Source of the DNA: Amoebophrya sp. A120
Lineage: Eukaryota; Protista; Dinoflagellata
Direction of reading: 5' to 3'
NCBI GenBank assembly: GCA_905178155.1
Contig: CAJINV010000006.1
Location: 3,968,130-4,032,129 of the forward strand
DNA: 64,000 bases
A program made the translations under genes and the position numbers. The notes under the pieces were generated by a model, which was not told the DNA's origin, searched no databases, and worked only from the letters and a program-made list of their open reading frames with translations. Numbering within the stretch: position 1 is the stretch's first letter; the number at the start of each line of letters is the position of its first letter. Of the stretch, positions 498-64,000 are shown in pieces.

Positions 498-2606
498 CTA
501 CTTCTTTGACGTCGTTATCCTGAGTAAAAACGTCCCCACCCCATAGTCAAGACGGAGATCTCGCAGCACAAATCGATAAGTTTTGGGAGGCAAGCATGAC
601 AAGTTCCTCTCTGTAGTGTAGTGCAGTTTTTCAAGCACAGCCGCAACACAAATCCATCTAGTCATCCTGTTACTGTTCACATCAGGATTACACAAAGTCC
701 AAAACACGACTGGAAACGCCTCTCGTGGGGATGCGCATTACAAATCTTCCTGTAACTGCAAATCTGCATGACAACTCTGGGGTGGGGACGTTTTTACTCA
801 GCATAGTCGTTCCCGCTTGTTTTTGCTCCTCCTGGTCTGTTTTCACCCCGTACATTTTCTTCAACAATTTATGAACTGCAAAAGCATCGTACTCGTAGTA
901 ATTGCTGTTATGCATGACAAATCTCTCTCCGAAGGTAAAACAGCATTACAGATTTGATTTGTAATGCTGAGCTGATTTGTAATGCGATTTATACTAGTAC
1001 GCTACTTTTGCACAGGATACAATTCGTTTTCCTCCAATTTTGCCTGGATATCCGCCTTTTTCTGGCGTATGGGGCTCTCAAATCGGTTACCTTCTCAGCT
1101 GTTCCATGAATTTGTCATGCAAAACTCTCATCAGTATCACTATCATCAAGCTGCTTCGCATGACAAATTTCCGAAGGGCTAAATGAGAGCATCTAAACTT
1201 GTGCCGAACCTGTAATGCAAAGGCGCGTAAGCTTTTCCCTTTCACTTTTGCGGTTCTTGCATTACAAATTTCATGTAACAGTTGAGAATGTAACTGACTT
1301 GAGAACGCCATATGACGGTTTCGCTGGTTGTAGTAGAGCAGGACGAGATACCTGGAGATCACATCAAGAAGAGTGTCGTTGACAATGATTTAGTTCAATT
1401 TTTCATTTTCATCAAAAAAAAGCCTCTTAGGACCACCAGGGTATTCATCTTGTTTATTTTTTGCATGACAAACTATAACTACACAGCACGCAAATAGATG
1501 AAGATTTTAGCAGGATCATTTATATGGCTGTGTTTTATATCAACTGCAAAAATGTCTGGGTCTGGAAACTTGTGATGCAACTGCAAGTCCGTGAACAATA
1601 AGTGCTCTGTGATGCGCCGCAAGCATGACAAGTTTTTTCGTGCTTCTGTGATGCGTATTTCGCATGAGAAACTGTGCTTTTGCATGACAGCCAAGAGGAC
1701 CTCTTGGTGGCCGCGCAATACAGAGTGCAGAGTCATGCCAGACTAGCATGACAATCTTCCAGACCCAGACATTTTTGCATTTGAATTTGATACTTTATAC
1801 CTTCCGTCCACATTAAACCCGGACAAACTGTCCAAAGCCAGCTTCGCATCGTAAATATCGTCGTAGACCACGAAATATGAACTGCAAAAGTATCGTACTC
1901 GTATTGCAATCTATGCATCACAAATCTTTTTCTTACGGTACATCAGCATTACAAATTTTCTTTCTCATGCTGAGGAAATTATTTGTATAGGCATTTCTAC
2001 AAGTATCGAATACTTTTGCAATGCATACGAAAGCGGTTCCCTTGGTTTCCTGCGTGTTTCCTTTGCGGATCTGTCTTATGGACCCGAATTTCCCGAAGAT
2101 GTCGTACAGCTCATCAGTGTATCAAGTAAAAAAATTTTTTCTGGATGCCTGGATGAAACTTGTAATGCTAAAAGTGAATGATAGACGCACTGCGACTGCC
2201 ATTACACGCAGCCAAGCATGACAAATTTCTGAGCTGCTGCCCATCGTGTTCATCTTGTTGCGTATTTTTCCACAAGTTGACATGGCAACCTGCGACTTTG
2301 CATGATAGGTTGTCAGAGGACTCTTTAATAATATTCTAATGCCCATATATGCATCTTCACAGTAGATGCTCGAGTATATGTCATGTCAGAAATGCATCAT
2401 GACAAGTGTACTAGCAATCTCCCAGACCACCCAGACATATTATTTGCGGTCGATACCGAAGTGATTTTGTAGGGAAGATTCCGGACGTAGATTATCCTGT
2501 TCACCTCCGGGGGCAGCCGGACTGATCTCCTTCCCGCGGCTGTGGACAACACGGACGGGTTGCTGGCGATGGGATGCGGAGTCTCGGCGGTCGGCGGGGG
2601 AATCAT
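498..2606 (-). CDS. SF3B6: Splicing factor 3B subunit 6 (p14, U2 snRNP branch-site RRM protein), 7 exons
   Basis: Spliced exons give [82 protein letters not shown]...LLKKMYGV, matching the known p14 sequence. Five introner introns plus one GT-AG intron (~1352-1800). Confidence 0.95.
516..805. mobile_element. Introner family A
   Basis: TIR TATCCTGAGTAAAAACGTCCCCACCCCA; TSD GTCGT. Confidence 0.95.
870..1019. mobile_element. Introner family B
   Basis: TATGAACTGCAAAAG...CTTTTGCACAGGATA; TSD CAATT. Confidence 0.95.
1068..1312. mobile_element. Introner family C
   Basis: TATGG..CTCAA...TTGAGAACGCCATA; TSD TGGCG/TGACG. Confidence 0.9.
1538..1792. mobile_element. Introner family D nested in a GT-AG intron
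   Basis: TGCAAAAATGTCTGGGTCTGGAA...TTCCAGACCCAGACATTTTTGCA; TSD TTTTA/CTTTA. Confidence 0.9.
1876..2027. mobile_element. Introner family B
   Basis: Family TIR; TSD CGAAA. Confidence 0.93.
2120..2455. mobile_element. Decayed introner, D-like
   Basis: TAT..ATA ends and degenerate CCAGAC TIR; TSD diverged; removal restores the SF3B6 frame. Confidence 0.8.
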
Positions 2607-3750
2607 TTTTGCAGTTTTTTTTGGGGGGGCGCCTTCGAATTCCGTTGCACAGCTTTATAGATTTCTTCGAACTTCCTTTTTAGTTTTGCTTTTGGGTGTA
2701 CATCAGCAGGGAATATAATCAAAACTAGAGGACAAAACACAAAAAAGTCCCTTGGAAATACTCGCTACATGAAGGTGACACAAGATGAAATTATCTCTAT
2801 GGATGAAAAGGACTTAGAAACACACTCGCCTGTTGAACCAAATGGAAATATAGTTGAAATTTGATTTGGAAGGAATGAAACACATAAACAAGACGTGAAA
2901 ATCGGAGAAAAACAAAAATGAAAATTTGCATCTGTAATTTAGTTTTTCAGAGTTATATTTCTCTTTTCCATTTTCAATAGTGGAATTTTAGAACCTTTGC
3001 GTTGGCGCTCGCTTGCACGACGAGCAGAACTTGAACTCCTCGAAGAACAGTGAAAATTGAAATTCACATTTTACCTCAGAATTCTAAAGCCAGATCGTCT
3101 GGATCTGGTGGGGATCTCTGCTTTTAGGTCGTCGACGGGATGCAGATGCAGTGTCTGAGTCAGTCAAGTAAGTACTTACTTAGGTACTCATACATCACCG
3201 GAAAGTAGTAGACAAGATCAATGATGCTCCCGCTTGTTGCATTAGATACTTTCAACATCGGAAAGAACTACAGCTGATGTTGAGATTCAGATTGAGATTT
3301 CGTTTGATCAAATAAACGACTGGCCTCCAGCAAGTCGCTAAAGAGAAGCTCGTCGTCGTCGCGCTCCCTACGTCTACATGCCAGGCGCAGGCCGCCCGAC
3401 CACAGGGGAGACAGAAAGAAGTACTTACGTGGCTGTCGCGAACAAGAAGAGGACCCGCTTATGCTTTCGATTTCTTTTTCTTGCTCGAAAGTCTATTCAT
3501 AATTTCAAAACATCAATCCTAGGGCACGACCTACCCTAGGTACAACCTGTGCTGAAAATTCATTTCCGACCCGCCATCTGATCTTCTTCGGAAAAAAAAT
3601 GGAAAATGATATTGAAACGTCGATGAAAGCGAATTCTCCAAATTTTGGTACAACAACTTTTGCTGCGGTGATGTTTTACTTTACTTTCAGCAAGACGACG
3701 TGATGGAAAAGAAAAAAGCCACCGGAGCTGCATGAAGATCGACCCCAGCA

Positions 3751-4044
3751 TATTCTGAGTAAAAACGTTCGTTCCCACCCCAGAATTGTCACGCAAATCT
3801 GCATGCCAAAGAAGTGTCTCATGCGGAGACCCATGAGAGGTATTCCCAAGCTGTGTTTTGGAATTTGTGATGCTAGAATCAGCGCGATGTGCTAGATCTG
3901 TGATGCGGCTGAGCTAGCTAGTAGACAGGATTACACTACAAGGACAAACCTGTCATGCGAAACAGCCAAAGCTGGCTGATGTGTCTAGCAGATTTCCCAT
4001 CTTGTTCACTATATGGGGTGGGAAGGTTTTTGCTCAGAAAGATA
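3751..4044. mobile_element. Introner family A (3' UTR)
   Basis: Family TIR; TSD CAGCA. Confidence 0.9.
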
Positions 4045-4049
4045 CAGCA

Positions 4050-7000
4050 CTAGTTATAGGCAAATCCCGGGGGCCGCGCTGCTGTTCTTGCCTGTGGCGG
4101 ATCATTATTCGCGAGCATCGGTGCCGCTGCGGGAGGAGGCGCTGCTCCTGCATTACAATGAAAAATGCCCCCACCCCCGAACTTGGGAGCATTTGTGTTG
4201 CAAACCTTTCAAAGTGAAACGCTCGCCCTCTTGCATCTATCAGCATCACAGATTTCCAATCACGAGTAGCAAAAATTTGTATTGCAAAAGATCCCAGCAA
4301 GGGCGGCGCTTGTTGTGCCAGCGATGCGATATACGCCTAGAGTCTGCATCAGAAAGACTCATACTCCTTTCATGCATGACAAAAAGTTTTCATTTGGAAA
4401 CCTCGCATCACAAATTCTTGCAGCTTTGGGGGTGGAGGCATTTTTCACTGTAATATCCTGCGCCGGAAGTTCTCTCCCCCCGCCCGTCCGGTGCTCCTAA
4501 ATTCTGCTGCCCCGATATCCTGTGCAAAAGTATCGTATTCGTATAAATGCATTACAAATTTTCTCAGCATCAGAAAGAAAATTTGTAATGCGGATTTACC
4601 TCAAGAAAAAGATTTGTAATGCAAGACTGGCATTTATACGAGTATGTACGATACTTTTGCACAGGATACCCGAAGGCTGTTGACCATGAAGATGACCTCC
4701 TGCTGCGCTGGTGTTTCTGTTTGGCATGTAGTTTTTGGCACTACCGCTAGTACCACCTGGCACGTAATTCCGCAGATATCTCCACTTGTAGAACAGCAGC
4801 GCGCCCATGACCAGGAAGTAGATCGAAATGGCGACCAAACTGATGAATGCGTTGACGAACACCGTGTAGGAAAGCAAGGGGACGCAGTATATTCAGAGGA
4901 AAAATGCCCCCTCCCCATATCAAAATGAAAATCTGTGATGCCGGATTTGTGTACACAAATCGGATTTGTCTTGCGGTGGAGGAGGAGGACTGCAGACAGA
5001 TACAAAGCCCGGAACGGGGTGGCTTAGCAGGGTAGGCACTTAGCATGACAGACATCCGCTCTAGTAGCGTAGCAGCATTACAAATCGCCTGCGAAATGCA
5101 GCGGAAGCCCTGGCGTTGCTCCACTGCAGGACAGACTTGATTTGTGGCCGCAAATCAGCATCACAAATTTTGAGGGAGGGGGGATTTTTCCTCACAATAC
5201 AGTACGCAAAGTGGCCCGGGGTGAACGCCAGCCAGCCGCCCCAGATGTGTATGAATGTGTGAGGATCGAAAACGACAAAATCGAAAAACTTGTCATACGT
5301 AAAATGTAGGGCACTGAAGGCCTGTATTGGGAAGCAGGCAAATGAGACCGATTGTAAGCCTGTAGTTGAGGGGTGCGCAATGTGCTGCCAGAGTAGCATG
5401 ACAGGAGCAGTCTTCTTTGCCCACACAGCATGACAGACCGGACTGGGGTGCAGCTCCCGAAATTTGTCATGCGCCACTTGGAAACTGAGGCTCCAACTGG
5501 TGTCGATATTTTGCATCACAAATCTTTCGATTTTGTCAATTTCGATTCTGACACTTCCATAATGTGCACCCCCAGTGTGAGAAAACTCGTCGCCACCGCC
5601 ACGGAGCGAAGCTCGACTGTAGGCTTGTAACGAAAGTAATATGAACTGCAAAAGCATCGTACTCGTATATATGCATTACAAATTTTCTCAGCATGAGAAA
5701 TGAAATTTGTAATGCGGATTTACCTTAGCAAAAGGATTTGTAATGCATGATTGCAATACGAGTACGATACTTTTGCACAAGATAAGTAACACTGGATCGC
5801 AACGTCAAAAGCGGAGACGGCAGTGCCGGTGAGTTGTGAATTCCAAAAATAATGCTTGGGTCTACTGGAAGGCTGCAGACTTGTGATGCAAAATCCAGAT
5901 CACACAAAAATCTGTGTTGCGCAATTTCCAAAAGCTGTTCATCTTCATTTCATCTCATGCGGGCGACAAGGGATCAAGAGGCAACAAGCGCCAAAGAAGA
6001 ATCTGTAATGCTTTATTTCTGTGTACTATTTTTTGTGTGAAGCAAAACCTGCATTATATATACAACAATCTTCTGCACCTGTCGCTCTCCAGACCCAGAC
6101 ATATTTTTTGCAATGGATATGAAAAGGTAGGCCAACATTTCCGAGCAGATGGAGTACCTGAAGACGAGTTGTACTTGTATCCATAAATTTGGACCATTCG
6201 TCACGCGTCCGAAACAAATTCATATTCAAATGCATTTTTGTACTTACACCCCAATTATCGATCCTGCCGCATCTTGTTCGAACAAGTGGATCAAGAATGG
6301 TACTTCTGGTGCACTTACTTACTTACTCGTGCGAGTGGTATTTCAGCCAGCCACGCACCGGCGCGTTCCACGTGAGCATTCCCACCATTAATGCGCTCGC
6401 CCAAAGGAGTATCGAAGAAAAAAACTTTGTGAAGATGCGCACCATGCAAAGGGAACAATGCGTCTGTCACGCTGGTCATGCATTCTGAGCGCCATCCAGG
6501 CGCGTTTATTCCACGTACGTCAACTGCGCACGACAGGATTTTGCTGTCATCAATGCCAGACAGATACTTCTATTTGTAATGCTGTTCCTCCAATAAAAAA
6601 GTAGTTACACCTACATTCTTTTTTTCTCAAATAACAAGCCCCGGCGGCACCAGAAACGGCGCATGAACTGCAAAAGTATCCTATCGTAATCGTATAAATG
6701 CATTACAAATTTCTTCAGCATGAGAAATAAAATTTGTAATGCGGATTTACCTTAAGGAAAAGATTTGCAATGCATGACTGCAATTACTACGAGTGCGATA
6801 CTTTTGCACAGGATACGGCGCTAGCACCGACATTTTTTCGTACTTGGTGCCGTTGGTGAGGTTACCAAAGATCGACAGCTTTTGCTTCTCGTGCTGCGGC
6901 TGCTCGGCGTCGCTGCCGCTCTGTCCTATCCTGAGCAAAAACGTCCCCACCCCATAGTCAAGTTGAGAATCTAGCAACACAAATCTCCAAATTTTGAGAG

Positions 7001-9376
7001 CTGTGCATCACAAGTTTCCCTCTGCAGTGTAGTTCTGATTGGCAAGAGAAGCCGCATGAGAAAGCCACTTTCACATCCTGTTTACAGCATCACAAATTCC
7101 AAAACTACACGATTGGCATTGGAAATTCCCCTCATGGAGCTGCGCATTACAAATGTTCCTGTCATTGCATATTTGCATGACAACTCTGGTGTGGGAACGT
7201 TTTTACTCAGGATATGTCCGGAAGATGCGTTGCCCGTCTGATGACCTGGTTGTTGTTGACCTTTCGTTCCTATGAACTGCAAATATGTCTGGGTCTGGAA
7301 GATTGCCAGGCTTGTCATGCATATTTTGAATGACCCCTGATGTCTGTGAGGTATGCCCTAGCGTCACAGATTTTTAGAGGGCTTTGCGAAGCCTCTACCG
7401 TGTGAGAAATGCCCTCTCCGCGTAGCACAAACTGGAGTCCTCTTGCACTTGCTGGTCATGCAATACAAATTGAAATTTTTTTAGAATCCAGAGACAGCAT
7501 TACAAGTTAAGAATCTTCCAGAGCCAGATATATTTGCATTTGATAGTTCCGTAGATGCCCTTCGTGAAAAACGTGTCTAGCTGGTCCAGAAAGTATAACG
7601 CTGCGACGCAGCATCCCGCAATGAAAAAAAACAGCAGCCCGATGGTCAACGACTCGGCCCTTCTGTCTTCCGCATTCGGGATATGACAGTGCACTACTCC
7701 GCCTCCTCCTCATTTCTCATGCAAAATCCCAAATCCAGTCACTGCCTTGTAGCTGTAGCACTGCTGGCTGCATGACAAATTCCGGAAGCCCAAACAGTAC
7801 TACAATAGGTACACAAATTTGTCATGCGTAGCCTCCACGTGTGCTGGCTTTTGTAGTGGTGTTCATGCTATACAAATGAGGGGGAGGGGGAGTTGTGCAC
7901 TCTCATTCGGGAACGCCGGGTGTCGCGGGTTCTCTTTCTTGAATCGCTGGTAGTGCGGGGAACTGGAAGCGTATCGTGAGAAAAAAGTGCTACAGTTACA
8001 CACTCTGACGCAGGACGAGCAAGACAGACAACCTCTGTCATGCAGGAAATGCTTTTGCTTGCCAGCGTCATTCTCATTTATTGGTGTTTTCCCTTGGCAT
8101 TACAAGTTTTCTCTGCCATGCAGAGCACATTTGTCATGCTGAAATTCCATCAAATGTGTAACTGTAACACTTTTTTCCTGTGATAAAGCGGCGGTGGATT
8201 CTGTTGTCCCGCTTGCAGTTCCGGTTCTTGCGGACGGCGAAGCAGCACGATCTGTTGTAGCTCCTGCGGCACCTGCTGGCGTGGTCGGGGTACCCGGCTG
8301 CACGACAGGGTTATGGCGTTCTCAAATGTTACATTCTCAGCTGTTACATGATTTGTCATGCAAAATGACCATGAGCCACCAGACGATCGCGCTGCTTCGC
8401 ATGACAAGTTCTCGAATGGCTAAACAGCGTTTAAATCTGTACCAAATCTGTCATGCAAGACGCGCAAGCTCCCTCCTTTCATTTTTGCCATTCTTGCATG
8501 GCAAAGTCATGTAACAGTTGAGAATGTAACAGTTGAGAACGCCATAAGGGTCTTGGCGACCATGTAGTTGCGTGGAAGCCGCATCATCTTCCCGTGACTT
8601 TCTGATTCTGCTTGATATTCTGCCTTGTTTCTCATTATTTTCCGCCAGGAGAACTACTAGATCTCCCGCTCTAGTTATCCCAAGAAAAAAGTGTTACAGT
8701 TACACATTTGTTGTCAATTCAGCAACACAAATTTCTCTGCATGAGAGAGAAAACTTGCATTGCTGAAATCCTACGGGAAAACACGTATGAAACAAGGTTT
8801 GAAAGCATTTCGTGCATGACAGAGGCTGTCTGCCATGCGTGTTTTGCAACACAATGTGTAACTGTAACACTTTTTTCTTGCGATACTAGTAGTACTCCCC
8901 GTTTTGTAGTTCTTGTGAGGGTCGTCGTCGCCGGCAGTACCAGTACCACCAGCGCCGGCGGTTTGCTTCAGAAAGGACCGGAACGCCGACTGGTTCTTTT
9001 TGGCGCTCGAGATCCACGAAGGATTCGGTTTGCGTTTGGGGGAAGCGCCAGAGAGTTTCTTATCCTCAGCCCCATGGTGACGTGTCTCTAGTGGTTGTAC
9101 CTGCTCCTTCGTATTAAGGACGTCGAGAGCATATTGCTTTTTGTCCAGCTGTAGAAACTGCTCGCCATTGAGAAACCCGAACGTGCTGAGAGCGGCGACA
9201 GATATCGCGGTCTGCGGCACGAGGTTGGCTACTAGCGCGGACAACACGAAAGAACAGCGCACGATTCTTCTTGTTCGAGTATGAGGACGAGCTCCGCTTC
9301 CGGCTGCGGTTCTTGGTACAACTACACTCGAAAATGAAACCCCCGACCAGCGGCCGTGGCCGCGTCCCGGCGCCAT
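4050..9376 (-). CDS. Multi-exon hypothetical multi-pass membrane protein
   Basis: Exons between introners join into hydrophobic segments (LTIGLLFFFIAGCCVAALYFL; YTVFVNAFISLVAISIYFLVMGALLFY); stop TAG at 4050-4052. Middle exon boundaries uncertain. Confidence 0.6.
4151..4455. mobile_element. Introner family E
   Basis: TIR ATTACAATGAAAAATGCCCCCACCCCC; TSD TCCTG. Confidence 0.93.
4516..4668. mobile_element. Introner family B
   Basis: Family TIR; TSD CCCGA. Confidence 0.95.
4890..5199. mobile_element. Introner family F
   Basis: TIR TATT..GAGGAAAAAT.CCCCCTCCC; TSD CAGTA. Confidence 0.93.
5250..5561. mobile_element. Introner family G
   Basis: TIR TATGGAAGTGTCAG.ATCGAAA; TSD ATGTG. Confidence 0.92.
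5640..5784. mobile_element. Introner family B
   Basis: Family TIR; TSD AGTAA. Confidence 0.95.
5835..6119. mobile_element. Decayed introner family D
   Basis: GGGTCT..TGGAA / CCAGACCCAGACAT; TSD diverged. Confidence 0.75.
6410..6633. mobile_element. Decayed introner, H/J-like
   Basis: TATCGAAGAAAAAAA...TTTTTTTCTCAAATA; TSD diverged. Confidence 0.65.
6662..6815. mobile_element. Introner family B
   Basis: Family TIR; TSD CGGCG. Confidence 0.93.
6927..7214. mobile_element. Introner family A
   Basis: Family TIR; TSD TGTCC. Confidence 0.95.
7271..7545. mobile_element. Introner family D
   Basis: Family TIR; TSD GTTCC. Confidence 0.95.
7682..7907. mobile_element. Introner family I
   Basis: TIR TATGA.AGTGCACAACTCCCCCT; TSD CGGGA. 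Confidence 0.92.
7972..8185. mobile_element. Introner family H
   Basis: TIR TATC...GAAAAAAGTGTTACAGTTACAC; TSD AAGCG. Confidence 0.94.
8312..8546. mobile_element. Introner family C
   Basis: TIR TATGGCGTTCTCAA.TGTTACATTCTCA; TSD AGGGT. Confidence 0.95.
8676..8885. mobile_element. Introner family H
   Basis: Family TIR; TSD CTAGT. Confidence 0.95.
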
Positions 9377-53200: not shown

Positions 53201-54487
53201 CGGAAGTGGCTCTTCGTCGGCGACCTGCACGTCTTCAACGACCAACAATTCATCCACGAGGTATTTGTGGTCGTTGATCGCCTCGGAGGAAACAGGACCA
53301 CGACGACGTGAAACATTACTACTAGATGCTGCTGCTGCACCTCCTTCTGCATAAAAATCGTTATCCAACACTGAAGACGAGGGCAGGGCTAGTGACAATT
53401 CGAAGTGCATGTCCAGGTTCTTCAGCAGGTCCAAACCTTGCGATGTTAAGTACTGTACCCACTTGTCCTTCAATTCCCTTATTGTCCAATTTTTCCAAAT
53501 CTCTTTCGGAATCACGGCAATCAGGTTGCCGTTCAAGCCCCGGACCTGGAGCTGCTGCTGCTCTTCCGATGTCGTGGTGGGATGAAAAAATTCAGCATCT
53601 TCGTAGCCGTGCAGACCCGAAGCAGACCCCTCAGCTGGTGTATTAATTCCCGTTGATGCAGCGGCATTATCAAGGCCCTGCTGCTGACGAAGCCGGAGGC
53701 TCCTGGGACTCAAGGTACTAGTGTTTGCTTCGTTCCTGCCGGTACTAGTACCCTGTCTGCTTTGTGAAGAAGAAGCGGTACCTCGAGTTGTACATCCTGC
53801 AGGCTGCTTCACTGCCCCTCCACTTGACGACGGCGGTTTCTTCACCCCGCCTGTGCCAAACCAGGTCGACGACGAGAATCCTGAAGATGATCCGCTCGGA
53901 CACCTCCCATGCGTTGCGTTCACGCCTGGCAGAGCGTGGTCGTCGTGGCCACCAGGAACAATTGTTCCTCCGGAAGCAGGCAACACCCTTCCCCCCGCCG
54001 TGGGAATGAAAGCCCCGGATTTGTACCTCGTGTCAGCTGTTGCTGGAAAAGGGTGTTCGGCCGAAGCAGAATGATAAGTAGTACCGCGAGCAGGTTTTTC
54101 TCGCACCTCGGGACTGAAGGGACGGACCGCTGTGGCGCCGGAAGATGATGCGTCAACATGTTCGTCATGCTGTTGCCGATACCTGCCAGCGAATGCCAGG
54201 TCACGAGCACCAGAGGTCTCCTGCTGCCCACTGCTATCCTTCGAGGAGATCCTCTCCCAAAAGCCCTGGAGTCTTTGGAAAGGAGAGGAAATGGTAGATG
54301 CAGCGTGTAGTGGCTGACCCTGTGGTGCTGCACGTGCGCCATGATCTTTACCGCTCCTCGGTGCGGAGCGAAGCTTGGTCGCTAAAGTTGAAGACAGGCG
54401 TGTGTTGCTGCAAAGCAGCAGCAGTAGCCGCACCATTTTGGCGGGCGGGAGAGAAGCGGGAGTCATAGCAGGAGGTCTACTTGTCAT
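50218..54487 (-). CDS. Large hypothetical protein
   Basis: 519-aa first ORF and 236-aa last ORF, with short exons separated by six introners. Confidence 0.6.
50963..51185. mobile_element. Introner family I
   Basis: Family TIR; TSD GCCGG/GCCGC. Confidence 0.93.
51297..51555. mobile_element. Introner family D
   Basis: Family TIR; TSD GTATT. Confidence 0.93.
51726..51942. mobile_element. Introner family H
   Basis: Family TIR; TSD CAACT. Confidence 0.93.
52114..52279. mobile_element. Introner family M (singleton)
   Basis: TATCAAACAAAAAAGTGTT...AACACTTCTTGCTGTGATA; TSD AGCTG. Confidence 0.88.
52511..52806. mobile_element. Introner family G
   Basis: Family TIR; TSD TGTGT/CGTGT. Confidence 0.92.
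52873..53014. mobile_element. Introner family B
   Basis: Family TIR; TSD GAGGT. Confidence 0.95.
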
Positions 54488-56462
54488 GGTTATTGATTCT
54501 TGTTGGTTCTTCGATTGAATCGGTCGAAAAAAAAATGATAAAAAAACAGGTGCAACAATGCAGCGTACAGATGGTGCAAAAAGTCAAAGACAGCTAAGAA
54601 ACCAGCACAGCAGGCGTCGATTGTGCTGCAATAGACCCAAAATTTATCCGAGCAGAGAGTGGCCCGAGGCAAAATGAAAAAAACTTGTTCTCGCAACCTC
54701 TACCCCGCAACCAATGCGGCCATGACCTGGCTGATGCATCTTCCAAAAAGGAGCGCGCTATATAAGATCGAAGTTTTTCTTCTGTGAGAAGTCCGGTGCT
54801 TGAGAAGATCTTCTGAAAAAGCCAAATTGATGGTGCACTGGAACCTCAACAACCTGAACTTAAAGTTGGAGAAGTGCAAGTACTACCAAAACGCGATCAT
54901 GATACGCAGGATCAATCGAATCGGGTGCTCGCGAGTCAACGTGTTTGTGCCATCCAGCGAAGATCAACATCAATCGATCCAACACTTCTACTTACTTCCG
55001 CAGCCGTTCGTGTCTGGTTGTGCAGCTTTAGCGAATTTTTTTTTATCAAATCTCTTTCCCTAAATCTAAACAATTTCATTCGTACTTGATTTATTCCGCC
55101 GGTGGAGTTTATTTGTTTCAACGCCATTTTTTCCTCCACTAGCACAACTATCCAGCTAGGAGTACATTTTTCATCTTGAAACGATTTTTTTTTTGAAAAT
55201 TGTTTTTCGAAACGATATAAAACTGTAAGTAAATCGGAGCTCTAGAAGAAGGGTAGATGAAACCTAAGTTTGAGTTTGGTACAGGCGTGCATTTTTGGAG
55301 AGGTCTCTTGTTTGCATCATCAAGTGCACAGAGTAAATCCTTTATTTTAGCACGACAGTTACTTGCTCAGGTCTGTTAAGCTATAGTAAGTCGTTATTTG
55401 TTGGTACAGAACCTTCCTGCTCATTTGATGTTTCATCACAATATCTGTATCTGATCCGATCGTAGAAACGCCAGAAATGCTGAATTCCCTAGTAAAACAA
55501 GTTTTCTCTGAAATCTGATTAGTTGTAAAGTGTAAACAAGAAACGGTATAAGGAAATCTCTTGTACTGTAATTTTTTGCAATTATTTTCAGCTATTCTGC
55601 TGGTGCTTAGCTTTTCTAGAATTTGATTGCGTGACTGCGCAGCGTATCTAGAAGTATATCGTGTGCTGTATTCCCGAATTTAGGTTCTCTGAAAAGCCTC
55701 GACAATATCATTGGAAAAATAATTCACATATTCAAGTGTATTAACAGAAAGGTAAAATTGTGAAAGCTCTCGTTGGTAGTAGTGTGTCATCACGCGAAGA
55801 GCAGAGCCTTGTGAAGATTCTGATCACAGGCCCTGACTACGCGGACATCACAGCAGGTAAATGGGAGCCGCGATGGTTGATCGATTAACTGCGACGGCGA
55901 CCACCATCCGGTGCAGCTGCGACGGGCAATTGCTATAGTCTCAAGAAGATTTTTGTGTGATAAGTGAATTTTTCTTCGAAATTTTTCCTGCTGGTCCTAA
56001 CAGCGGCTACGATTATTTGCCCTCCCTGTCATGTCGGAGGCCGCAAGGGTAAACGCAAAAAGCTCTCTAAATTTGGTGTTCTTGCTGTAAACTGAAAAAG
56101 CATTAACAAGATCGACAACTGATGTCCCATTGGTGTTTGAAGTTTTTGATAAGTACTCCGATGATTTCTTTGTCTGTGATCAATTATATAAATTCTGCAA
56201 TAAATAAGTGACAACACGTCTGATAAGCGTAACTAAATGAAATCGAAATCTGAATCTGTTTATTCTGAACAATAAGGTTCTAACCTAAGGTCGGTAAAGT
56301 GTGCTTTAAACTGAAAATAATAATCACGAATTTTGATGCCTACGCTGTCATAGACTTTGAAACGGATTTAGGCTATGAATCTGAAACCACTTGCGAATGC
56401 GAGCCGAAAAAATTTTTCTGCAGTACAAATTTCTCTTCTGATTTTGCTAATTCTGGATTAAC

Positions 56463-59400
56463 CTAGTACTGACCTTCCCCCGCACCAGCTCCCTCTTCAT
56501 ATTCCCCCTCGTCATACTCCCCCTGCTCGCCCTGATCCCCATCCGCGGTGGACACCCAGTTTCCATCGTCATCGTAGTAGCCCCCCTCGCCATTCTATCC
56601 CGAGAAAAAACAGACGTTACAGGTACACACTCTGGTGGAAGACACGCAAGACAGACAACCTCTGTCATGCAAGAAATGCATCCCAGCCTCGTATCATTCA
56701 TGTTTTCCCTTATAGTCTGCGCATCACAGGTTTTCTTTGCCATGTCGAGCAACCCTGTGATGCAGAAACTCCAACAAGTGTGTAACTGTAACACTTTTTT
56801 CCTGTGATACATTCTCCTGGTTCTCGTCGTAGCTCCCCTTGGAGTCGTAGTTGCCGCTACACTATCCAGTGGAAAATCATCGTACTAGTATAGGTTCTTG
56901 CAAGACAAATTTCTTCAGCATGAGAACTGGAATCTGTAATGCGGAATTACCTCAAGAAAAAGATTTGTAATGCATAACTGCAAGCAATTGCTACGAGTAC
57001 GATGTACTTTTGCAATGCATATACCCTCCTCCTGTCCATCGTCCTCGACGGACTCCACTTCCCGTGCGCTGCTCCGTCGGGGTGCGCCATCCAGCACCAT
57101 GCTCCGAGTCGTGGATCTACGAGCCGCGTCGTCGTCCTCCTCGTTCTTTTTCGGCGGGGGGCGCACCGGCCCTAGGACTCCGCCGCCGAAATTTCGCTTC
57201 AACTTGCTATCAAAAGGAAAAATCTCCCCTCCCAATATCGAAAAGGAAATCTGTGACGCTGGATTTGCGTACACAAGTCAGATCTGTCTTGCAGTAGAAG
57301 ACTGCAGGCATATGCCAACCCTCGGCGGCGAGGTTTTGCTTTTGACATAGGCGCCTAGCATTACAAATGTCCACCCTGTAGGCCCAGCAGCATTACAAAC
57401 CGCCTGCACAATGCGGCGCAGCCTGTGGGGTTGCCTTCTTGCAAGACATCACAGGCGATCTGTGATAACAAATCAGCATTGCAAATTTTCGTTGGCTTCC
57501 TTTTCGATATGGGGAGGGTGGATTTTTGCTTACGATACTTGCTTTCTCTTGACTTGGCCGCGTCGCGGTACTTCGCGTCTAGGTGTTGGTGGTAGTCAAA
57601 AATTTGCTTGTCCGTTTCCAGATACTTTTCCGCGACCGTGTCCCTCCGCGGTCCCGTGTCCGTTGACACGATGGATTTCTTGGACGCGCCGGCGGCTAAG
57701 AACCCGGCATCCGCTAAAGCGTCAGCATCGAGATCAACCCCAGCCTTGATGTCCGCGATGTAGCTTCCTCGGCGCTTGATGTGGGAGTCGAGCTCCAAGT
57801 GCCGGGCCATTTTTTCTTTGTCCAGGTAGTACTGTCGTCCGTGCGAGAAGTCTAGACTGTCCCGGAACTTGACATAGTGCTCCAAAATGTCCGACATCAA
57901 GTCGGACAGCGCGCCGACCAGAATACCGAAGAAGATCAGGCCGAGGAAACACTGGAAGTAGCAGAGGAAGATCCCGGTGTATGTCTCAAAGTCCGGCGTG
58001 ACCCACTCGCCGAGCAGAAAGAAGAGCGTGTACATCATGCTCGTCGGAATGGAGTCAAACGCCCCACCCATCTCGCGCTCCGCGTACCACCAAAGACCCG
58101 AGCAGACGCACAGCGTATGCATTGCAAATATGTCTGGGTCTGGAAGGTGGTAACTTGTGATGCTGTCTTTGGATTCCAGAAAAATCTGTATTGCATAAAC
58201 TAGCAAGAGGAGTCCAGTTTGTGCCACGCGGGGAGGGCGTTTCTCATGCGAGATACGCATGATCAGGAAGCCCTGTGAGAATCTGTGAAGATGCTAGGGC
58301 ATGCATTACAGGCGTCATGGGTCATGCAAAACGTGCATGACAAACGTGGCAATCTATCTTCCAGACCGAGACCCAGACATATTTGCATTTGCTACAGCGT
58401 GAACAGCGACAACGACAGTCCGCCCTGGAAAATGACGAAAAAGGTCCCCATATCCTGACTAAAAACGTCCCCACACCAGAGTCAAGATGGTAAATCTGCT
58501 AGACAAATCAACCAGCTTTGGCTGTTTCGCATGACAAGTTTATCCTTGTAATGAGTAATCCTGTTTAGGTAGTTCAGCAGCATAACAGATCTAGCATATA
58601 ATGCTGATTATAGCATCACAAACCCCAGAACACGAGTAGAAAATGCCTTTGATGGGGCTCAGCATGATAAACTTCTTTGGCATGCAGATTTGCATTACAA
58701 CTCTGGTGTGGGGACGTTTTTACTCAGGATACCCCATGCCGTTGTAGAAGCTGCGGATCCCGCGGAAGAAGCCCAGGTTAACAAAATGGATCACGTGCAG
58801 AGCAAGGACACACTGGAGAAAGTTGTTGGCGAACAAGGCGTGGTACTCGTTTTCTGGCATCCGCGTTTTCTCACCTTGGGCGTCGAGACGAGCCTGTGAC
58901 CGATTTTTTTCACTTTATTTGATGCAAAAATGAATGAAGATCATGGTTGTGCTGATTTCAAAATTCATGATCATGCAGACCACACAAGGAATAAAACATT
59001 GACATTCCTTATTCAATTTATCTCGTCGCATTTTTCCCAATATTAAAACAAGCGTCGCTTCATGTGACAGTTGTACCACTTGTGGCCATTCCTCCGGATC
59101 CAGTAAAAAGAGCTGCTCGAGAACCAGCCACACGAACGCGGCTAGTAATACAGCGTCAACCACCCTGACGAAGCCAAACAGCTCGTACACGACGGAAAAT
59201 TTACTGGTCACGTTGTCCGGGGCCGCCCGGAGGTACAGCGAATACTCGATCACGTAAAACACGAACAACACGCACTCGATGCAAAAAAAGCCAAACGCCC
59301 AATCCCCTACCTCTGGGGTTGCGTAGCCCTTGCTGGTGAACTGCCGCGCGTCCTCGCCCGCGAGCACGTACAGCGACGCGTCACAGGATTGGAATATGCC

Positions 59401-62400
59401 GTCGATGGTGGTAAACAGATGACATGTGATATCCTGAGTAAAAGCGTAGCCACACCAGAGTTGTAATGCAGATTTGCAAAGACAGGAAGACTTGTAACGC
59501 GCATCCCCATGAGAGCCATTTCCAATTCTGTTTTGGAATTTGTGATGCTGTGAACAGGATGAGCAGATGAATCTGTGACGCGGCTGCACTTGCTAACCTG
59601 CACTACACTGCATAGTCCAACTTGTTTTGTCAAGCGTGACTCACAAAACTCCTAGGTTTGTGTTGCAAAATCCTCATCCTGACTCTGGTGTGGGTACGTT
59701 TTTACTCCGGATATGTGAGCATGAAGTACTGGTAGAACAGACCGAACCTGTCGTTCAGGTACCTGGGTTGGTCCGCAACGAGGCCCAGCGCGAGGTTCCT
59801 CTTCTGCCTCCGCCCCTGTTTTGTGTTGGGAATCGGGGGAATTATTGCCTCCTCTTCCTGCCCCTCCCCGCTGTACTGACTGGACATCTTGGCCAACGAC
59901 TTCGCCGCGCCGGACGGCATGCCGGAGGATCGATAGGAGTGGGAGACGGAGGTGTGGCCGGAGGCGTTATCCAGGAAAAAAGCTCCTGTGTAAGTGTAAC
60001 TTTGTAGGAAGAACAGCACCACAAATTCGTTTTGCATGCTTACAGGGAATAGAACCTGTCATGCGCAGCTAGTACGCGGAAACACGTGTGAAAGTTGCCT
60101 AAGCCTATGACGCACATCTAGCATGACAAATGTATAGAGTTTTGCATTTCCTGCATCACAGACCTTACGCAGCTTTTTTCTTGCATATGCGTAGGAGCTC
60201 GACCAGTATTGGGTCTTGCTTTCTTCCCCGTCGCCTATGCTGAGCAAAAACGTCCCCACCCCAGAGTCTTCAAGTTGGGAACTCAGCAACACAAATCCGG
60301 AAGCTTTGGGGGTGACGCATGACAAAAACACGACCAGAAATGCTTGTCGTGGGGGTGCGCATTCCAAATGTTGCTGGAATTGCAGATCTGCATGACAAGT
60401 CTGGGGTGGAGACATTTTTGCTCAGGATATCGCCCCCGTCTTCTTCACTTGGGTACGTCCCCTCCGATTGGGTTGCCAGGTCTTCGTGGCTGTTATGGAA
60501 GTGCACAACTTCGCCTGCCCCTCATTTGTATGGCGTCCGCAGCAATACAAACACCAGCACCCGTGGAGCTTGTGCATGACAAATCCATGCGCCTAGCCTG
60601 GTACTGTTTAAGCTTTCCGAAGTAGATGAATTTGTGATGCAAGCAGCGCCACAAGAGGCAGCGCTTGGGCTTCGCTTGGCTTTGGGGTTTTGCATGACAA
60701 AGGAGGGGGACGAGGGAGAGCTGTGCACTCTCATAGTAGTCTTCGTCCGTGTATTCCTGCTCCTCATCGTAAAATATCAAATGCAAAAATGTCTGGGTCT
60801 GGAAGATTGCAACTTGTCATGCAAAATCCGAATCATGCAAAAATCTGTGTTGCACGAGAGCCAAAAGCTGTCCACTTTCGACCATGTTGGGACGGAGTTT
60901 CTCATGCAGGAGAGGCATGACAGAGACCTCAAAAAGTCTGTCATGCTAGGTCCCGCATTCCAGACCTCATTGGTCATGAAAAACCTGCATGACAAGTCTG
61001 CATTCTTCCAGACCCAGACAATTTTGCAATTCGTATAAAATTGAAATACCTGTTTCGGCTTCCCATCTGGCCCGGTTGTTGTGGTAACGCGCACCGGGGC
61101 TTTGTTTTGTTGATTTCTACTCGAAGAAGTACTTCTTGATTTATCTCCCGCCCTTGATGAAGTAGTAGATGATCTTCCTCCTGCGATCGTCGGAATAGGC
61201 TCCACTGCGGTTTTGCTGCTGGTGGACCGCTTGGAGGACGAAGTTGATGAGGAAGAAGAAGAGGACGTTGTGCCTAGTACTTTGTTCTTCGACGCATTGT
61301 TCCTACTGGACGATGCTGCTTTGTGCCCTCCCTCAAAATTCGCGGCCAACCCGCCGCCGGCAACGAAGCCCCCGGGGCCGCCTTGCTGGCCACCTTCGTC
61401 GTAATTTTCGTCGTACTCCCCGGATTCGCCGTAATTCTCCTCCCCGTTTATCCTGTGTAAAAACGTCCCCACACCATAGTTGTCATGCAGCTCTGCATGT
61501 TTAAAATGTTTCTCATGCGGAGCCCCATGAGCAGCATTTTCTAATGCGGTTTGGAAATTCCAATTTGTCATGGTCCAATCAGCATGAGATACTAGATGTG
61601 TAATGCTGCTGAACTAGCTCAAACAGCACTACACTACGCGTCCAAATTTGTCATGCGAAACAGCCAAAGCTTATGGATTTGTCTAGCGGATTTCCAATCT
61701 TAACTCTGGTGTGGGGACATTTTTACTCAGGATACCATTTTCGTCATACTCCCCAGATTCCGGGTACGCCTCGCCGTTTTCATCGTTATCAAGTGCAAAT
61801 ATCGATCTGGGTCTGGAAGAATGCATGTTTGTCATGCTTCTCTGACATGACTCTTAAATCTGTCATGCACGTTACGCAAGAGCTGCGCCATTTTTCTGTC
61901 ATGCGTAAACGCAGTTTGTCATGCATAATAGGCAACACCTAGAAGAAGCTCAGAAACTTGTCATGCTGAGCCAGCACTTGTGGCCTCCTCATGATACGCC
62001 ACCCAGCATCACAAGTTTCCACAGACCCCGACACTGTTACAATCCATAATCGTACTGACTATCATATTCCCCATCGTCTTCTGCAACCGAGCTCAGCTGG
62101 GAGCCCTTCTATAACGCGCTCAGGTGTAGTTACAATCTCAAACGTTACGAATAGAATCTGGAATTTGTGTTGCAAAATGTGCAACATCTGGCCAACTCCC
62201 ACAGGAGCGCGCATGACAAGTTTCGGAGCTCCAAACCACATGAGAATCTGGCGAAATTTGTATTGCGAAAACCCCAAGTCTCTGTACGGTACTCATGCTG
62301 TTTATGCAAGACAAATTTCAGATTCTATTGTAAAACGTTTGAGATTGTAACGTCTGAGCAAGCCATACCTTCTGCGACCCCTTTTTCCTCTTTGAAGCCC

Positions 62401-64000
62401 TGGTGCCCGTCGTTGCGCTAGACGCCGTGCTCGACCGGACACTGCTCATCATCTCCTGAGAGCCATCTTCCGTGCCGTCGTAGGATTGCTCGGTCTCTCC
62501 GGAAGTCAGCACCGTCCCCCGGGACATCGAGCTCCTCCGGGAGCTCCGGCTCTTCCGGCCCTTTATGTATGCTGTGCAAAAGTATCGCACTCGTAGTAAT
62601 TGCAATCATGCATCACAAAACTTTTTCTTAAGGTAAATCAGCATGAGAAACTCCTTTTGTCATGCTGCGAAAATTTGTAATGCGATTTCTACTAGTACGA
62701 TGCTTTTGCAATGCATATCATCTCCTCGCCGGCGAATTCCGATTTCCTGCCCTTTTTCCCTTTGCCCTTCATGGTCTCCCGTTTCTTTAAGATCGGCCGC
62801 AAATCCGGATTTTCTTCCCGGAACTTCCGCAGTCGTTCCTCGGATTCCAGCGCCTTTTCCTGCACCGCTTTTCTCATCAGTGAGAGTTGCCGGTACATGC
62901 GCCAGGTTTTTTGAATCGTGATGGCCGCCCCGTTATGCATTGCAAAAGTATCGTACTAGTAGAAATTGCAATACAAATTTCCTTAGCATGAGAAATGGCA
63001 TTTGTCATGCGGATTTGCCTTAGCAAAAAGATTTGTAATGCAAGACTTGCATTCATACGAGTACGATAGTTTTGCACACGATACCCGTTCTGGTCGTTTT
63101 GCCGCATGGTCCTTCGTGCCCGCTTCTATCAAATGCAAAAATGTCTGGGTCTGGAAGGTTGGAGCTTGTGATGCTAACTTTGGACTCTACAAAAATCTGT
63201 ATTGCATGATCAGCAACAGGAGTCTAGTTTGTGCTACGCGGGGAGGGCATTTGTCATGCGGAATAGGCATCAGGAGGCTTTCTAAAAATCTGTGATGCTA
63301 GGTCATGCATTACAGACATCCTGGGTCATGCAAAATATGCATGACAAACCCGGAAACATTCCAGACCCAGACATTTTTGCATTTCATAGCTTCATCTCGT
63401 GAATGATGATCGCGGTGATCAACCCGACCGGCGCGCCTAGGAACCCCGTATGAACGTGCGCAATTCCCCCTCGTTCTCATTTCTCATGCAAAATCCAAAT
63501 CCAGTTGTTCCCTTGGATCAGTATTATGCATGACAAATGCTGGAAGCTGCCCAAACACAGCACTACAATCCGTGCATAAACTTGTCATGCACAGCATGCA
63601 CGTGCGCTGGTGTTTGTATTGCTGTTCATGCTATACAAATGAGGGGGAAGGGGAGGGGGAGGGGGAGCTATGTGCACTCTCATACCCCGTCATGAAAATC
63701 CACATCACAAAGTGGATCAACCTGGCCAGCAAGCAGTACTCGACGAGCGGGTAGTATCCAGAAAAAAAAGCGTGTAAGTGTAACTTTCTTTGAGGAACAG
63801 CATCACAAATTTGCTCTACATGACAGAGAAAACCTGTCATGCGTGGTTTGTAAGGGAAAACACACAGGAAAAGAGGACTTCATGGCTGTCTGGCATGACA
63901 GGCGTAACTCTGTTGCATCTTCTGCAAGACAAATTTACACTTACACAGTTTTTTTCTCGCGATAGGTAGTCCCCGGTGGAGTGAATCATCATGAACTGCA
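56463..64000 (-). CDS. Ion-transport (voltage-gated channel-like) protein with IQ motif; 5' end outside the window
   Basis: IQ motif AAITIQKTWRMYRQL; S2-like FFCIECVLFVFYVIEYSLYL; pore/S6-like FDSIPTSMMYTLFFLLGEWVTPDFETYTGIFLCYFQCFLGLIFFGILVGALSD; ~18 introners; acidic Tyr-rich tail. May be more than one gene. Confidence 0.72.
56596..56809. mobile_element. Introner family H
   Basis: Family TIR; TSD CATTC. Confidence 0.93.
56863..57021. mobile_element. Introner family B
   Basis: Family TIR; TSD TACAC/TACCC. Confidence 0.88.
57208..57537. mobile_element. Introner family F
   Basis: Family TIR; TSD CTTGC. Confidence 0.92.
58116..58394. mobile_element. Introner family D
   Basis: Family TIR; TSD CAGCG. 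Confidence 0.93.
58451..58731. mobile_element. Introner family A
   Basis: Family TIR; TSD CCCCA. Confidence 0.95.
59430..59713. mobile_element. Introner family A (inverted relative to 43241-43519)
   Basis: Family TIR; TSD TGTGA. Confidence 0.94.
59968..60187. mobile_element. Introner family J
   Basis: Family TIR; TSD GGCGT/TGCGT. Confidence 0.92.
60236..60429. mobile_element. Introner family A (short, internally deleted)
   Basis: Family TIR; TSD TCGCC. Confidence 0.93.
60494..60735. mobile_element. Introner family I
   Basis: Family TIR; TSD GCTGT/GTAGT. Confidence 0.88.
60775..61035. mobile_element. Introner family D
   Basis: Family TIR; TSD TAAAA. Confidence 0.94.
61449..61734. mobile_element. 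Introner family A
   Basis: Family TIR; TSD CCGTT/CCATT. Confidence 0.93.
61787..62048. mobile_element. Introner, D-like (diverged)
   Basis: CTGGGTCTGG / CAGACCCCGACA; TSD ATCGT. Confidence 0.87.
62110..62367. mobile_element. Introner family K
   Basis: Family TIR; TSD CCTTC. Confidence 0.93.
62568..62717. mobile_element. Introner family B
   Basis: Family TIR; TSD TTATG/TCATC. Confidence 0.92.
62934..63083. mobile_element. Introner family B
   Basis: Family TIR; TSD CCCGT. Confidence 0.95.
63127..63388. mobile_element. Introner family D
   Basis: Family TIR; TSD GCTTC. Confidence 0.95.
63449..63684. mobile_element. Introner family I
   Basis: Family TIR; TSD CCCCG. Confidence 0.92.
63755..63964. 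mobile_element. Introner family J
   Basis: Family TIR; TSD GGTAG. Confidence 0.93.

What the first reader, a model, noticed from the sequence alone, without database searches (positions are those of the whole stretch)
516..63964. About 82 non-GT-AG, MITE-like introns from 12+ unrelated families share one excision grammar
Seen: elements of ~140-340 bp interrupt conserved genes (SF3B6, RRS1, centrin, DPH5, kinase). Each has the form [5-bp TSD]-TAT-family TIR...TIR-ATA-[TSD], usually with an A-run about 10 nt inside each end, and no consistent GT/AG at or near the boundaries. Removing the element plus exactly one TSD copy restores conserved motifs such as FPPE|AV, AYC|FLFG and DRDG|DG. Established: inverted-repeat/direct-repeat non-canonical introners are known from Amoebophrya, and to my knowledge the removal mechanism is unresolved. 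Inference: a dedicated host excision system (modified spliceosome, structure-guided RNA cleavage/ligation, or DNA-level excision) reads hairpin geometry rather than family sequence.
Basis: partly seen in the sequence, partly recalled or inferred. Interest (0 to 1): 0.88.

Follow-up and report, generated by a model that had tools for sequence, protein, structure and literature searches.

The report
Transposon introns cut at fixed offset
These are the already published transposon-like introns of Amoebophrya-type marine parasites, and transcript data show they are removed at one fixed, direction-dependent position (1 base before and 4 bases after the element) without GT-AG ends, likely by a spliceosome that has relaxed its usual end signals.

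Summary
I find 81 elements of the form [5-bp TSD]TAT…ATA[TSD], covering 30% of the window in about 16 sequence clusters, all in minus-strand genes. Transcript-like contigs remove element+5 nt at all 27 sites they bridge, while a DNA-like run keeps the elements.

The class is published (Amoebophrya A120 introners, PMC7789003), including the TAT start, A-run, 5-bp repeats and RNA-seq support. That paper left the splice position 'variable/unknown'.

Elements with mismatched TSD copies fix it. All 15 informative sites in 12 elements fit a single cut, intron = N|TAT…ATA|NNNN in transcript direction, and every other register conflicts with 4–11 sites. Across 405 elements the end triplets decay in a polar way: U+2 and A−7 are kept while their mirror bases drift (p=1e-4). 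Verified canonical donors are GTAY, and one intron joins a GT donor to an ATA+4 acceptor.

Best reading (0.6, inferred): a spliceosome that has dropped G+1 and the 3′ AG and sets the 3′ site by distance, possibly from a branch A at −7. DNA excision and an RT artefact are unlikely. Selection on the RNA hairpin was not detected.

The parts
870..63083 (.). Family A, 19 copies, 139-161 bp: 870-1019, 1876-2027, 4516-4668, 5640-5784, 6662-6815, 11420-11568, 12906-13044, 22182-22320, 24909-25058, 25465-25612, 31807-31959, 34503-34654, 38422-38582, 42374-42524, 47273-47422, 52873-53014, 56863-57021, 62568-62717, 62934-63083
1538..63388 (.). Family B, 14 copies, 255-288 bp: 1538-1792 (inside a canonical intron), 7271-7545, 12294-12581, 24597-24860, 29195-29451, 32089-32350, 38873-39134, 46930-47191, 47787-48047, 51297-51555, 58116-58394, 60775-61035, 61787-62048, 63127-63388
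516..61734 (.). Family C, 9 copies: 516-805, 3751-4044, 6927-7214, 33512-33797, 43241-43519, 58451-58731, 59430-59713, 60236-60429, 61449-61734
7682..63684 (.). Family D, 6 copies: 7682-7907 (the only window element lacking U+2; it has a GA start), 15415-15631, 48501-48717, 50963-51185, 60494-60735, 63449-63684
6410..63964 (.). Family E (6410-6633, 16582-16806, 30239-30447, 59968-60187, 63755-63964) and family F (7972-8185, 8676-8885, 42875-43092, 51726-51942, 56596-56809)
1068..62367 (.). Families G (4890-5199, 29829-30149, 33838-34157, 57208-57537), H (5250-5561, 28735-29045, 34750-35075, 52511-52806), I (21372-21627, 22935-23185, 31503-31759, 62110-62367), J (1068-1312, 8312-8546, 15132-15366), K (4151-4455, 25088-25396)
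2120..52279 (.). Single-copy elements: 22683-22870, 32407-33043 (637 bp), 40617-40886, 42017-42331, 52114-52279; also 2120-2455 (not clustered; TSD only 2/5 identical; in SF3B6)
22178..22321 (-). Diagnostic intron in centrin (element 22182-22320, CT..CA); transcript keeps TSD base 5 from the downstream copy
   Evidence: joint 22177/22322 in 4 runs
22679..22871 (-). Diagnostic intron in centrin (element 22683-22870, TT..AC); base 1 from the upstream copy, base 5 from the downstream copy; using the whole upstream copy would change a conserved EF-hand residue
25461..25613 (-). Diagnostic intron (element 25465-25612, TT..AT); base 4 from the upstream copy
   Evidence: joint 25458/25612 in 3 runs
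28731..29046 (-). Diagnostic intron (element 28735-29045, GT..AA); base 4 from the upstream copy; junction in a 1-nt homology although a 3-nt block was available
29191..29452 (-). Diagnostic intron (element 29195-29451, GT..CA); base 5 from the downstream copy
30235..30448 (-). Diagnostic intron (element 30239-30447, CT..CG); bases 2 and 4 from the upstream copy (left side read from contig record coordinates)
59964..60188 (-). Diagnostic intron (element 59968-60187, AT..GC); base 5 from the downstream copy (one piece end plus length sum)
62564..62718 (-). Diagnostic intron (element 62568-62717, AT..TA); bases 1 and 4 from the upstream copy
30793..31352 (-). Hybrid 560-nt intron: GT donor with an element-like 3' end (ATA then 4 nt, ending AC); no TSD; the join restores the frame
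   Evidence: (one contig, loose end at 30792)
21687..22611 (-). Three canonical GT-AG introns of centrin (21687-21832, 21992-22152, 22363-22611); donors GTAT, GTAC, GTAT
58894..59076 (-). Canonical GT-AG intron, donor GTAC, missing from the same contigs that skip the elements
1352..1800 (-). Canonical GT-AG intron of SF3B6 (donor GTAT) containing element 1538-1792; predicted from the protein, no RNA laid here

Best explanation
These are non-autonomous TIR transposon insertions (Amoebophrya A120-type introners) that transcript contigs show are removed at one fixed, transcript-polar register, intron = N|TAT…ATA|NNNN, most likely by a relaxed major spliceosome. Shown: they insert with a 5-bp TSD in either orientation; the DNA retains them; element+5 nt is removed; the cut lies between TSD bases 4 and 5; perfect TSD identity is not needed; U+2 and A-7 are conserved in a polar way. 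Inferred: the TAT end gives the donor its +2..+4 bases (U-A-Y), the same as this organism's canonical GUAY donors, so G+1 is dispensable. Also inferred: the 3' site is set by distance from the ATA (the cut falls 4 nt after it) rather than by an AG, with A-7 the best candidate branch point (about 0.35-0.4 on its own). Because the element is an inverted repeat it supplies both signals in either orientation, and because 1+4 equals the TSD length, a new exonic insertion would leave the protein unchanged. The mobilising transposase was not found.
For: Register: 15 mismatch sites in 12 elements give 0 conflicts for a cut after TSD base 4 and 11, 8, 6, 4, 4 conflicts for cuts after 0, 1, 2, 3, 5; P=0.01 if each element chose its register at random. 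Removal of element+5: 15 direct joints and 12 more by exact contig length sums. Polarity: variants at +2 number 1 against 11 at mirror -5, and at +4 14 against 3 at mirror -7; Fisher p=0.03 in the window (n=80), 0.007 in loci (325 of 367 with a strand call), 1e-4 pooled. The +4 variants are mostly C (9 of 14), and all 4 RNA-supported canonical donors are GTAT or GTAC. When the TAY is damaged, G+1 is present in 6 of 9 against 29% background (p=0.02, post hoc). The hybrid intron 30793-31352 combines a GT donor with an ATA+4 acceptor. Published: all 9 predominant A120 non-canonical sites start xT and all 9 in A25 start TT (PMC7789003 Table S4); U2, U4, U5, U6 and 83 of 89 spliceosomal proteins were found in A120; in the tunicate Fritillaria the U2 spliceosome removes TIR-derived non-GT-AG introns.
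Against: No lariat, branch or knockdown data exist here. In solved spliceosomes G+1 and the 3' AG are docked in the active site (PMC11482624), and here both are free: +1 and -4..-1 are near random. U1 was not detected in A120. Elements have G/C at +5 while four of the five GTAY canonical donors have A/T there (the 58894 donor too), so the likeness covers +2..+4 only, and the hybrid's GT donor is not GTAY. Beyond +4 no polarity was found (all p>0.06), and the bases around A-7 do not resemble a branch consensus. One RNA-verified intron has G at -7 (element 29829). The RNA evidence is assembled contigs from one study (2 samples), which show the majority path only; 3 of the 12 diagnostic elements rest on one piece end. 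All window genes are on one strand. Locus strand calls come from a coding model that miscalled 7 of 67 confident window sites.
Confidence: 0.6

Rival explanations
1. A non-spliceosomal endonuclease plus RNA ligase (as proposed for euglenid nonconventional introns) binds the base of the TIR hairpin and cuts 1 nt 5' and 4 nt 3' of it.
For: Elements fold into strong hairpins (z=-5.5 for 22182). The terminal 3 pairs and +9..+15 are mostly paired. A fixed 1/4 stagger with free terminal bases suits a structure-measuring enzyme. U1 was not detected in A120. Euglenid TIR introns leave as circles, not lariats (review PMC11282704).
Against: No G-U over A-C bias on the transcript strand (84:71, p=0.34; 202:177, p=0.22). 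The +4 U-to-C changes break the pair with A-7 yet recur. The hybrid intron keeps the 3' offset of 4 with a 5' offset of 8 at a GT. G+1 is enriched where TAY is damaged. Sense folding is slightly more stable than antisense (50 of 78, p=0.025), which is weak and may be compositional.
Confidence: 0.27
2. Elements are excised from DNA in some nuclei or life stages (ciliate IES-like), and the transcripts come from element-free templates.
For: TIR plus TSD anatomy. Low-level element-free joints in the DNA-like run could not be excluded, because its joint table was swamped by repeats (15 of 1,907 rows shown).
Against: DNA-like run X1 has contigs across element-exon junctions at even depth 23-33 with no differences. 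The contigs that lose the elements also lose GT-AG introns. The register and the decay of the end triplets follow transcript direction.
Confidence: 0.03
3. The skips are reverse-transcriptase template switches across hairpins between direct repeats, and the mRNAs keep the elements.
For: A hairpin flanked by a direct repeat is the classic template-switch substrate (recalled knowledge). All RNA evidence here is cDNA-derived.
Against: In 4 of 12 diagnostic elements the junction lies in the shorter homology block, in two cases only 1 nt. A single register holds across families. Retention would destroy centrin, SF3B6, the DPH5-like gene and the kinase.
Confidence: 0.03

Closest known systems
Amoebophrya A120 introner elements / non-canonical introns (Farhat et al. 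2021, PMC7789003)
   Same: IR starts TAT, then 7 variable nt, then 3 or more A; 3-5 nt direct repeats with a 5-bp example; many families; mean length about 240 nt; RNA-seq-validated removal; top non-canonical sites all xT.
   Different: The paper calls the splice sites 'variable' relative to the hairpin and the border 'unknown' (Fig. 3 legend). Here the register is fixed at 1/4 and the end signals are polar. I could not see the figure images (Fig. 3, S19, S23), which may already hint at this.
Amoebophrya A120 introner families in Gozashti et al. 2025 (PMC12130899)
   Same: TIR DNA-type introners of about 150, 210, 260 and 305 bp with mostly non-canonical ends.
   Different: Their automated calls give mixed TSD lengths (2-5) and mixed co-opt/carry modes in the 22 of 58 rows I saw. 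Their family 38, with Copia/Gypsy-like ORFs, has no counterpart among the long elements I checked.
Fritillaria borealis non-canonical introns (PMC13326754; review PMC11282704)
   Same: TIR/TSD transposon-derived introns, over 90% non-GT-AG, removed by the U2 spliceosome.
   Different: Preferred termini (AG-AC, AG-AT), a conserved U1 and duplicated U2AF. Here +1 and the last four bases are free.
Euglenid nonconventional introns (via review PMC11282704)
   Same: TIR hairpin, TSD-like repeats, non-canonical ends, and a longer unpaired 3' than 5' overhang.
   Different: Pairing is +4..+6 with -8..-6 (3/5 overhang against 1/4 here), the junction has a consensus, and the excised RNA is circular. The product here is unknown.
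Polarella, Aureococcus and Micromonas introners (seen only through PMC11282704 and PMC7789003)
   Same: MITE-like elements that become introns using TSD or TIR bases.
   Different: They keep G+1 (GT/GC/GA) and the 3' AG.

Membership tests
Amoebophrya A120-type introner elements | Terminal inverted repeat starting TAT, 7 variable nt, then an A-run | tested here: met
   definition
Amoebophrya A120-type introner elements | 3-5 nt direct repeat at the exon-intron borders | tested here: met
   5-bp TSD, 74 of 81 with at least 4/5 identity
Amoebophrya A120-type introner elements | Repeated, multi-family, non-coding | tested here: met
   11 multi-copy families; no transposase Pfam hit in 9 ORFs of 3 long elements
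Amoebophrya A120-type introner elements | Removed from transcripts without GT-AG | tested here: met
   27 of 27 bridged sites removed; 2 of 79 GT..AG
Amoebophrya A120-type introner elements | Sequence identity with published A120 family consensuses | tested here: inconclusive
   Two end motifs were not found in 12 of 14 supplement files of PMC12130899; the matching rows I saw give family metadata, and I did not check whether any file holds consensus sequences
U2-type spliceosomal intron | GU..AG (or GC/GA..AG) termini | tested here: not met
   N-U start and free end
U2-type spliceosomal intron | Lariat with a branch adenosine; dependence on U2/U6 | not testable with these tools
   A-7 conservation is only suggestive
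Euglenid-type nonconventional intron | CAG +4..+6 pairing with CTG -8..-6 | tested here: not met
   UAU +2..+4 pairs with AUA -7..-5
Euglenid-type nonconventional intron | Full-length circular excision product | not testable with these tools
   no matching raw RNA reads (X9)
Ciliate-like DNA-eliminated sequence | Absent from somatic DNA | tested here: not met
   DNA-like run X1 keeps the junctions; other life stages untested
MITE of a named superfamily | Cognate autonomous transposon with the same termini | tested here: inconclusive
   none in the window or in 150 loci, 562 kb with overlaps

The most novel reading that the evidence does not exclude
A spliceosome in this lineage splices tens of thousands of introns with neither G+1 nor a 3' AG. 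It reads only U+2/A+3 and an adenosine 7 nt from the end (a branch point carried in the transposon's terminal AUA) and measures the 3' site from it. That 1+4 offset equals the 5-bp TSD, so any insertion in either orientation becomes a scarless intron: host splicing geometry and transposase stagger are matched.
Probability: 0.35. Interest if true: 0.85.

Novelty: already known. Interest (0 to 1): 0.55.

Why it matters
How Amoebophrya removes its non-canonical introns has been open since 2021, partly because the direct repeats hide the true splice sites. A fixed N|TAT…ATA|NNNN register would correct the exon borders of tens of thousands of introns. It also names the bases any machine must read (U+2, A+3, A-7) and gives an exact prediction for lariat mapping: a branch near -7, or else a full-length circle. 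If the reaction is spliceosomal, it is a natural case in which both active-site docking nucleotides (G+1 and the terminal AG) are dispensable. It also explains why such elements can invade exons almost without cost.

Tried and rejected
1. The internal motif GCA(T/G)NACA(A/G) as a branch point: rejected. It is orientation-symmetric in elements (105 sense, 118 antisense; near the 3' end only 12, mirror only 16) and occurs in either orientation in canonical introns.
2. RNA-hairpin selection tested by G-U/A-C bias: not detected.
3. Preference at +1 or -1, or covariation between them: none evident.
4. My first reading placed the cut after TSD base 1 by assuming plus-strand genes; one search showed minus-strand genes and I reversed it.
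5. Autonomous element or transposase: none in the window or loci. One RMI1_N hit at E=0.01 was below its cutoff.
6. snRNAs or other Rfam families: 0 in the window and 0 in 14 of 150 loci.
7. Ab initio canonical-intron prediction was too noisy for a donor logo.
No RNA holder was on record; X3-X6 are judged cDNA because they skip GT-AG introns.
9. Viral contigs: 0 matches.
10. No genome is held for this window, so no genome-wide test or U1/U2/U6 search was possible.
11. Earlier-findings look-ups returned nothing.
Full report
OBSERVATION. A scan for a perfect 5-bp direct repeat flanking TAT…ATA with complementary arms gave 44 pairs with at least 9 of 17 arm matches; Markov shuffles gave 0.07. Allowing imperfect repeats and gapped arms (up to 700 bp) gave 67 pairs against 0-3. 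I dropped three overlapping false pairs (starts 1523, 51310, 62564). I added 17 elements by hand, most with variant terminal triplets or poorer repeats. The final set is 81 elements, 19,349 bp, 30% of the window, 139-336 bp except one of 637 bp. TSD identity is 5/5 in 56, 4/5 in 18, 3/5 in 6 and 2/5 in 1. Eighty of them fall into 15-18 clusters, 11 of them multi-copy families at 50% coverage.

Centrin (7 introns) and SF3B6 (6 introns) are rebuilt whole. Exon pieces hit Pkinase, TP_methylase, RRS1, EF-hand and RRM (9 of 37 pieces had hits). Two SF3B6 pieces match human p14 residues 4-31 and 33-61 with one codon between them.

KNOWN STATUS. Farhat et al. 2021 (PMC7789003; I read the abstract, passages, sections 10, 16 and 36, supplement parts 1-2 and table rows, but no figure images) describe this class in Amoebophrya A120. 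The inverted repeats start TAT, then seven variable bases, then at least three A. Direct repeats are 3-5 nt with a 5-bp example. There are 29,850 copies in 1,954 families, RNA-seq validated, and U1 was not detected. The grammar is thus published. Their Fig. [quoted passage not shown] In Gozashti et al. 2025 (PMC12130899; passages and 22 of 58 A120 rows of one supplement; files 13-14 not searched) the same families carry mixed TSD lengths and boundary modes. Five searches showed no paper that fixes the register. Subscription papers (Roy 2023, Henriet 2019, Guminska 2021) were not read and are known to me only through the review PMC11282704 (section 6). I assign the window to this class by anatomy; sequence identity to published consensuses was not established.

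TRANSCRIPT EVIDENCE. One search listed runs holding the stretch. X1 behaves as DNA: its contigs cross element-exon junctions without differences at depth 23-33. X3-X6 (kind guessed by the tool; one study, two samples) behave as cDNA, since they skip canonical GT-AG introns as well. In 21000-31000 all 12 elements are skipped: 11 as listed joints and 30239 by record coordinates. Three more direct joins come, and all 15 remove element+5. Twelve further elements are removed at exactly the summed length. That makes 27 of 27 bridged sites; the other 54 elements lay outside the two laid stretches or were not bridged in the rows shown.

THE REGISTER. With a perfect TSD the junction cannot be placed, but 24 of 80 elements have mismatched copies, and 12 of these were covered by contigs. 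In transcript orientation, four elements (22182, 22683, 29195, 59968) show TSD base 5 coming from the downstream copy. Four (25465, 28735, 30239, 62568) show base 4 coming from the upstream copy. The rest are compatible. Over 15 sites, a cut after base 4 has no conflict; cuts after 0, 1, 2, 3 and 5 have 11, 8, 6, 4 and 4. A common register would arise with P=0.01 if each element chose at random. Three of the 12 (59968, 61449, 50963) rest on one piece end; the nine with both sides still give the same unique answer. The intron is therefore N|TAT…ATA|NNNN. Only 2 of 79 are GT..AG, and +1 and -4..-1 are near background. A perfect TSD is not needed for removal: 3/5 copies are spliced (22683, 30239, 62568), and the 2/5 element in SF3B6 must be. 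In 4 of 12 cases the junction sits in the shorter homology block, which argues against RT switching. Farhat's Table S4 fits: all nine predominant A120 non-canonical sites begin xT, and all nine in A25 begin TT.

POLAR SIGNALS. A DNA-acting transposase sees both ends alike, so only asymmetry tied to transcription points to splicing. A pattern scan fetched loci of one metagenome assembly holding the same families (150 files, 562 kb with overlaps; 75 of 80 window elements matched, up to 95% identity). They gave 385 non-redundant elements, found without requiring TAT. Of these, 367 had enough flank and 325 received a pooled strand call; the coding model miscalled 7 of 67 confident window sites. 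Changes at +2 number 1 against 11 at the mirror position -5, and at +4 14 against 3 at the mirror -7 (Fisher p=0.03 window, 0.007 loci, 1e-4 pooled). So U+2 and A-7 are protected. Positions +5 to +25 show no polarity. The one +2 exception has G+1 (a GA start), and G+1 is present in 6 of 9 donors with damaged TAY against 29% overall (p=0.02, post hoc). The four RNA-supported canonical donors are GTAT, GTAC, GTAT and GTAC, and C is the commonest +4 variant in elements. One 560-nt intron pairs a GT donor with an ATA+4 end, which suggests the two ends are read separately.

Against this reading: +5 differs (G/C in elements, A/T in the canonical donors); the hybrid's donor is not GTAY; one verified intron has G at -7; and no branch consensus surrounds A-7.

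HAIRPIN. Elements fold strongly (z=-5.5 for one example). The three terminal pairs and +9..+15 are paired, while +5..+8 is paired only about half the time. G-U does not exceed A-C on the transcript strand (84:71 and 202:177), and sense folding is only slightly stronger than antisense (p=0.025). Selection on the RNA hairpin is therefore not shown; the pairing may reflect transposase needs. The shared internal 9-nt motif is orientation-symmetric and also occurs in canonical introns, so I reject it as a branch site.

MECHANISM. Shown: insertion with a 5-bp TSD in either orientation, retention in DNA, removal from transcripts at a fixed polar 1/4 register, and polar conservation of U+2 and A-7. 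Inferred (0.6): a relaxed major spliceosome takes N-U-A-Y as donor and measures the 3' site from the AUA. The Fritillaria precedent shows that a U2 spliceosome can process TIR-derived non-GT-AG introns (PMC13326754, abstract, introduction and part 1 of the discussion). In standard spliceosomes G+1 and the 3' AG are docked in the active site (PMC11482624 passages), so losing both is the hard part of this model. Rivals: a hairpin-measuring endonuclease-ligase as suggested for euglenids (0.27), DNA excision (0.03), RT artefact (0.03). Other papers were seen as passages only: PMC12005148 (another Amoebophrya with GT-AG introns and U1), PMC11453091 and bioRxiv 2022.06.08.495308 (pyrimidine at donor +4 in several lineages). 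No transposase was found.

LIMITS. The RNA data are assembled contigs from one study, so they show majority paths only. All window genes share one strand. No genome was available. The figure images of the 2021 paper were unseen and may already hint at the register.

VERDICT. Real, and a known class. The value added is a fixed splice register and polar end signals that make the open question of mechanism directly testable. Interest 0.55.

Noticed in passing
window 30793-31352 (-): 560-nt intron with a GT donor and an ATA+4 acceptor ending AC, no TSD; seen in one contig; the join restores the frame between two long ORFs.
   Followed up: partly
whole window, e.g. 22363-22611 and 516-805: A 9-nt motif GCA(T/G)NACA(A/G) occurs 267 times, in both orientations, in elements (at least 26 nt from their ends) and in canonical introns. 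It may be a DNA-binding or transposase site. I did not see it in the passages read and did not search for it in print.
   Followed up: partly
window 44805-46184 (-), within 44001-46000: GC-rich stretch (64% at 44001-46000) with a 460-codon open frame and no Pfam hit; close to no depth in the two RNA-like runs, which proves nothing.
   Followed up: no
window 2120-2455: An element in the spliceosomal gene SF3B6 has lost its TSD (2/5), yet removal of element+5 gives a gap-free match to human p14.
   Followed up: yes
window about 5841-6119: Degenerate family-B-like element whose plus-strand left end lacks TAT; not counted among the 81.
   Followed up: partly
window 24757/24829: A CT..AC joint of 71 nt inside element 24597-24860 in one contig (X4, short side 20 nt): possibly a canonical intron within an element, or another copy.
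   Followed up: no
L006:505-1608; L022:6184-6998; window 32407-33043: Longer TAT…ATA elements (1,104, 815 and 637 bp) with perfect TSDs and no recognisable transposase.
   Followed up: partly
window 18950-20300: Intergenic repeats carrying the internal motif but no TAT/TSD ends; possibly a different or decayed element.
   Followed up: no
whole window: All element-containing genes lie on the minus strand, a unidirectional cluster as described for dinoflagellates.
   Followed up: yes
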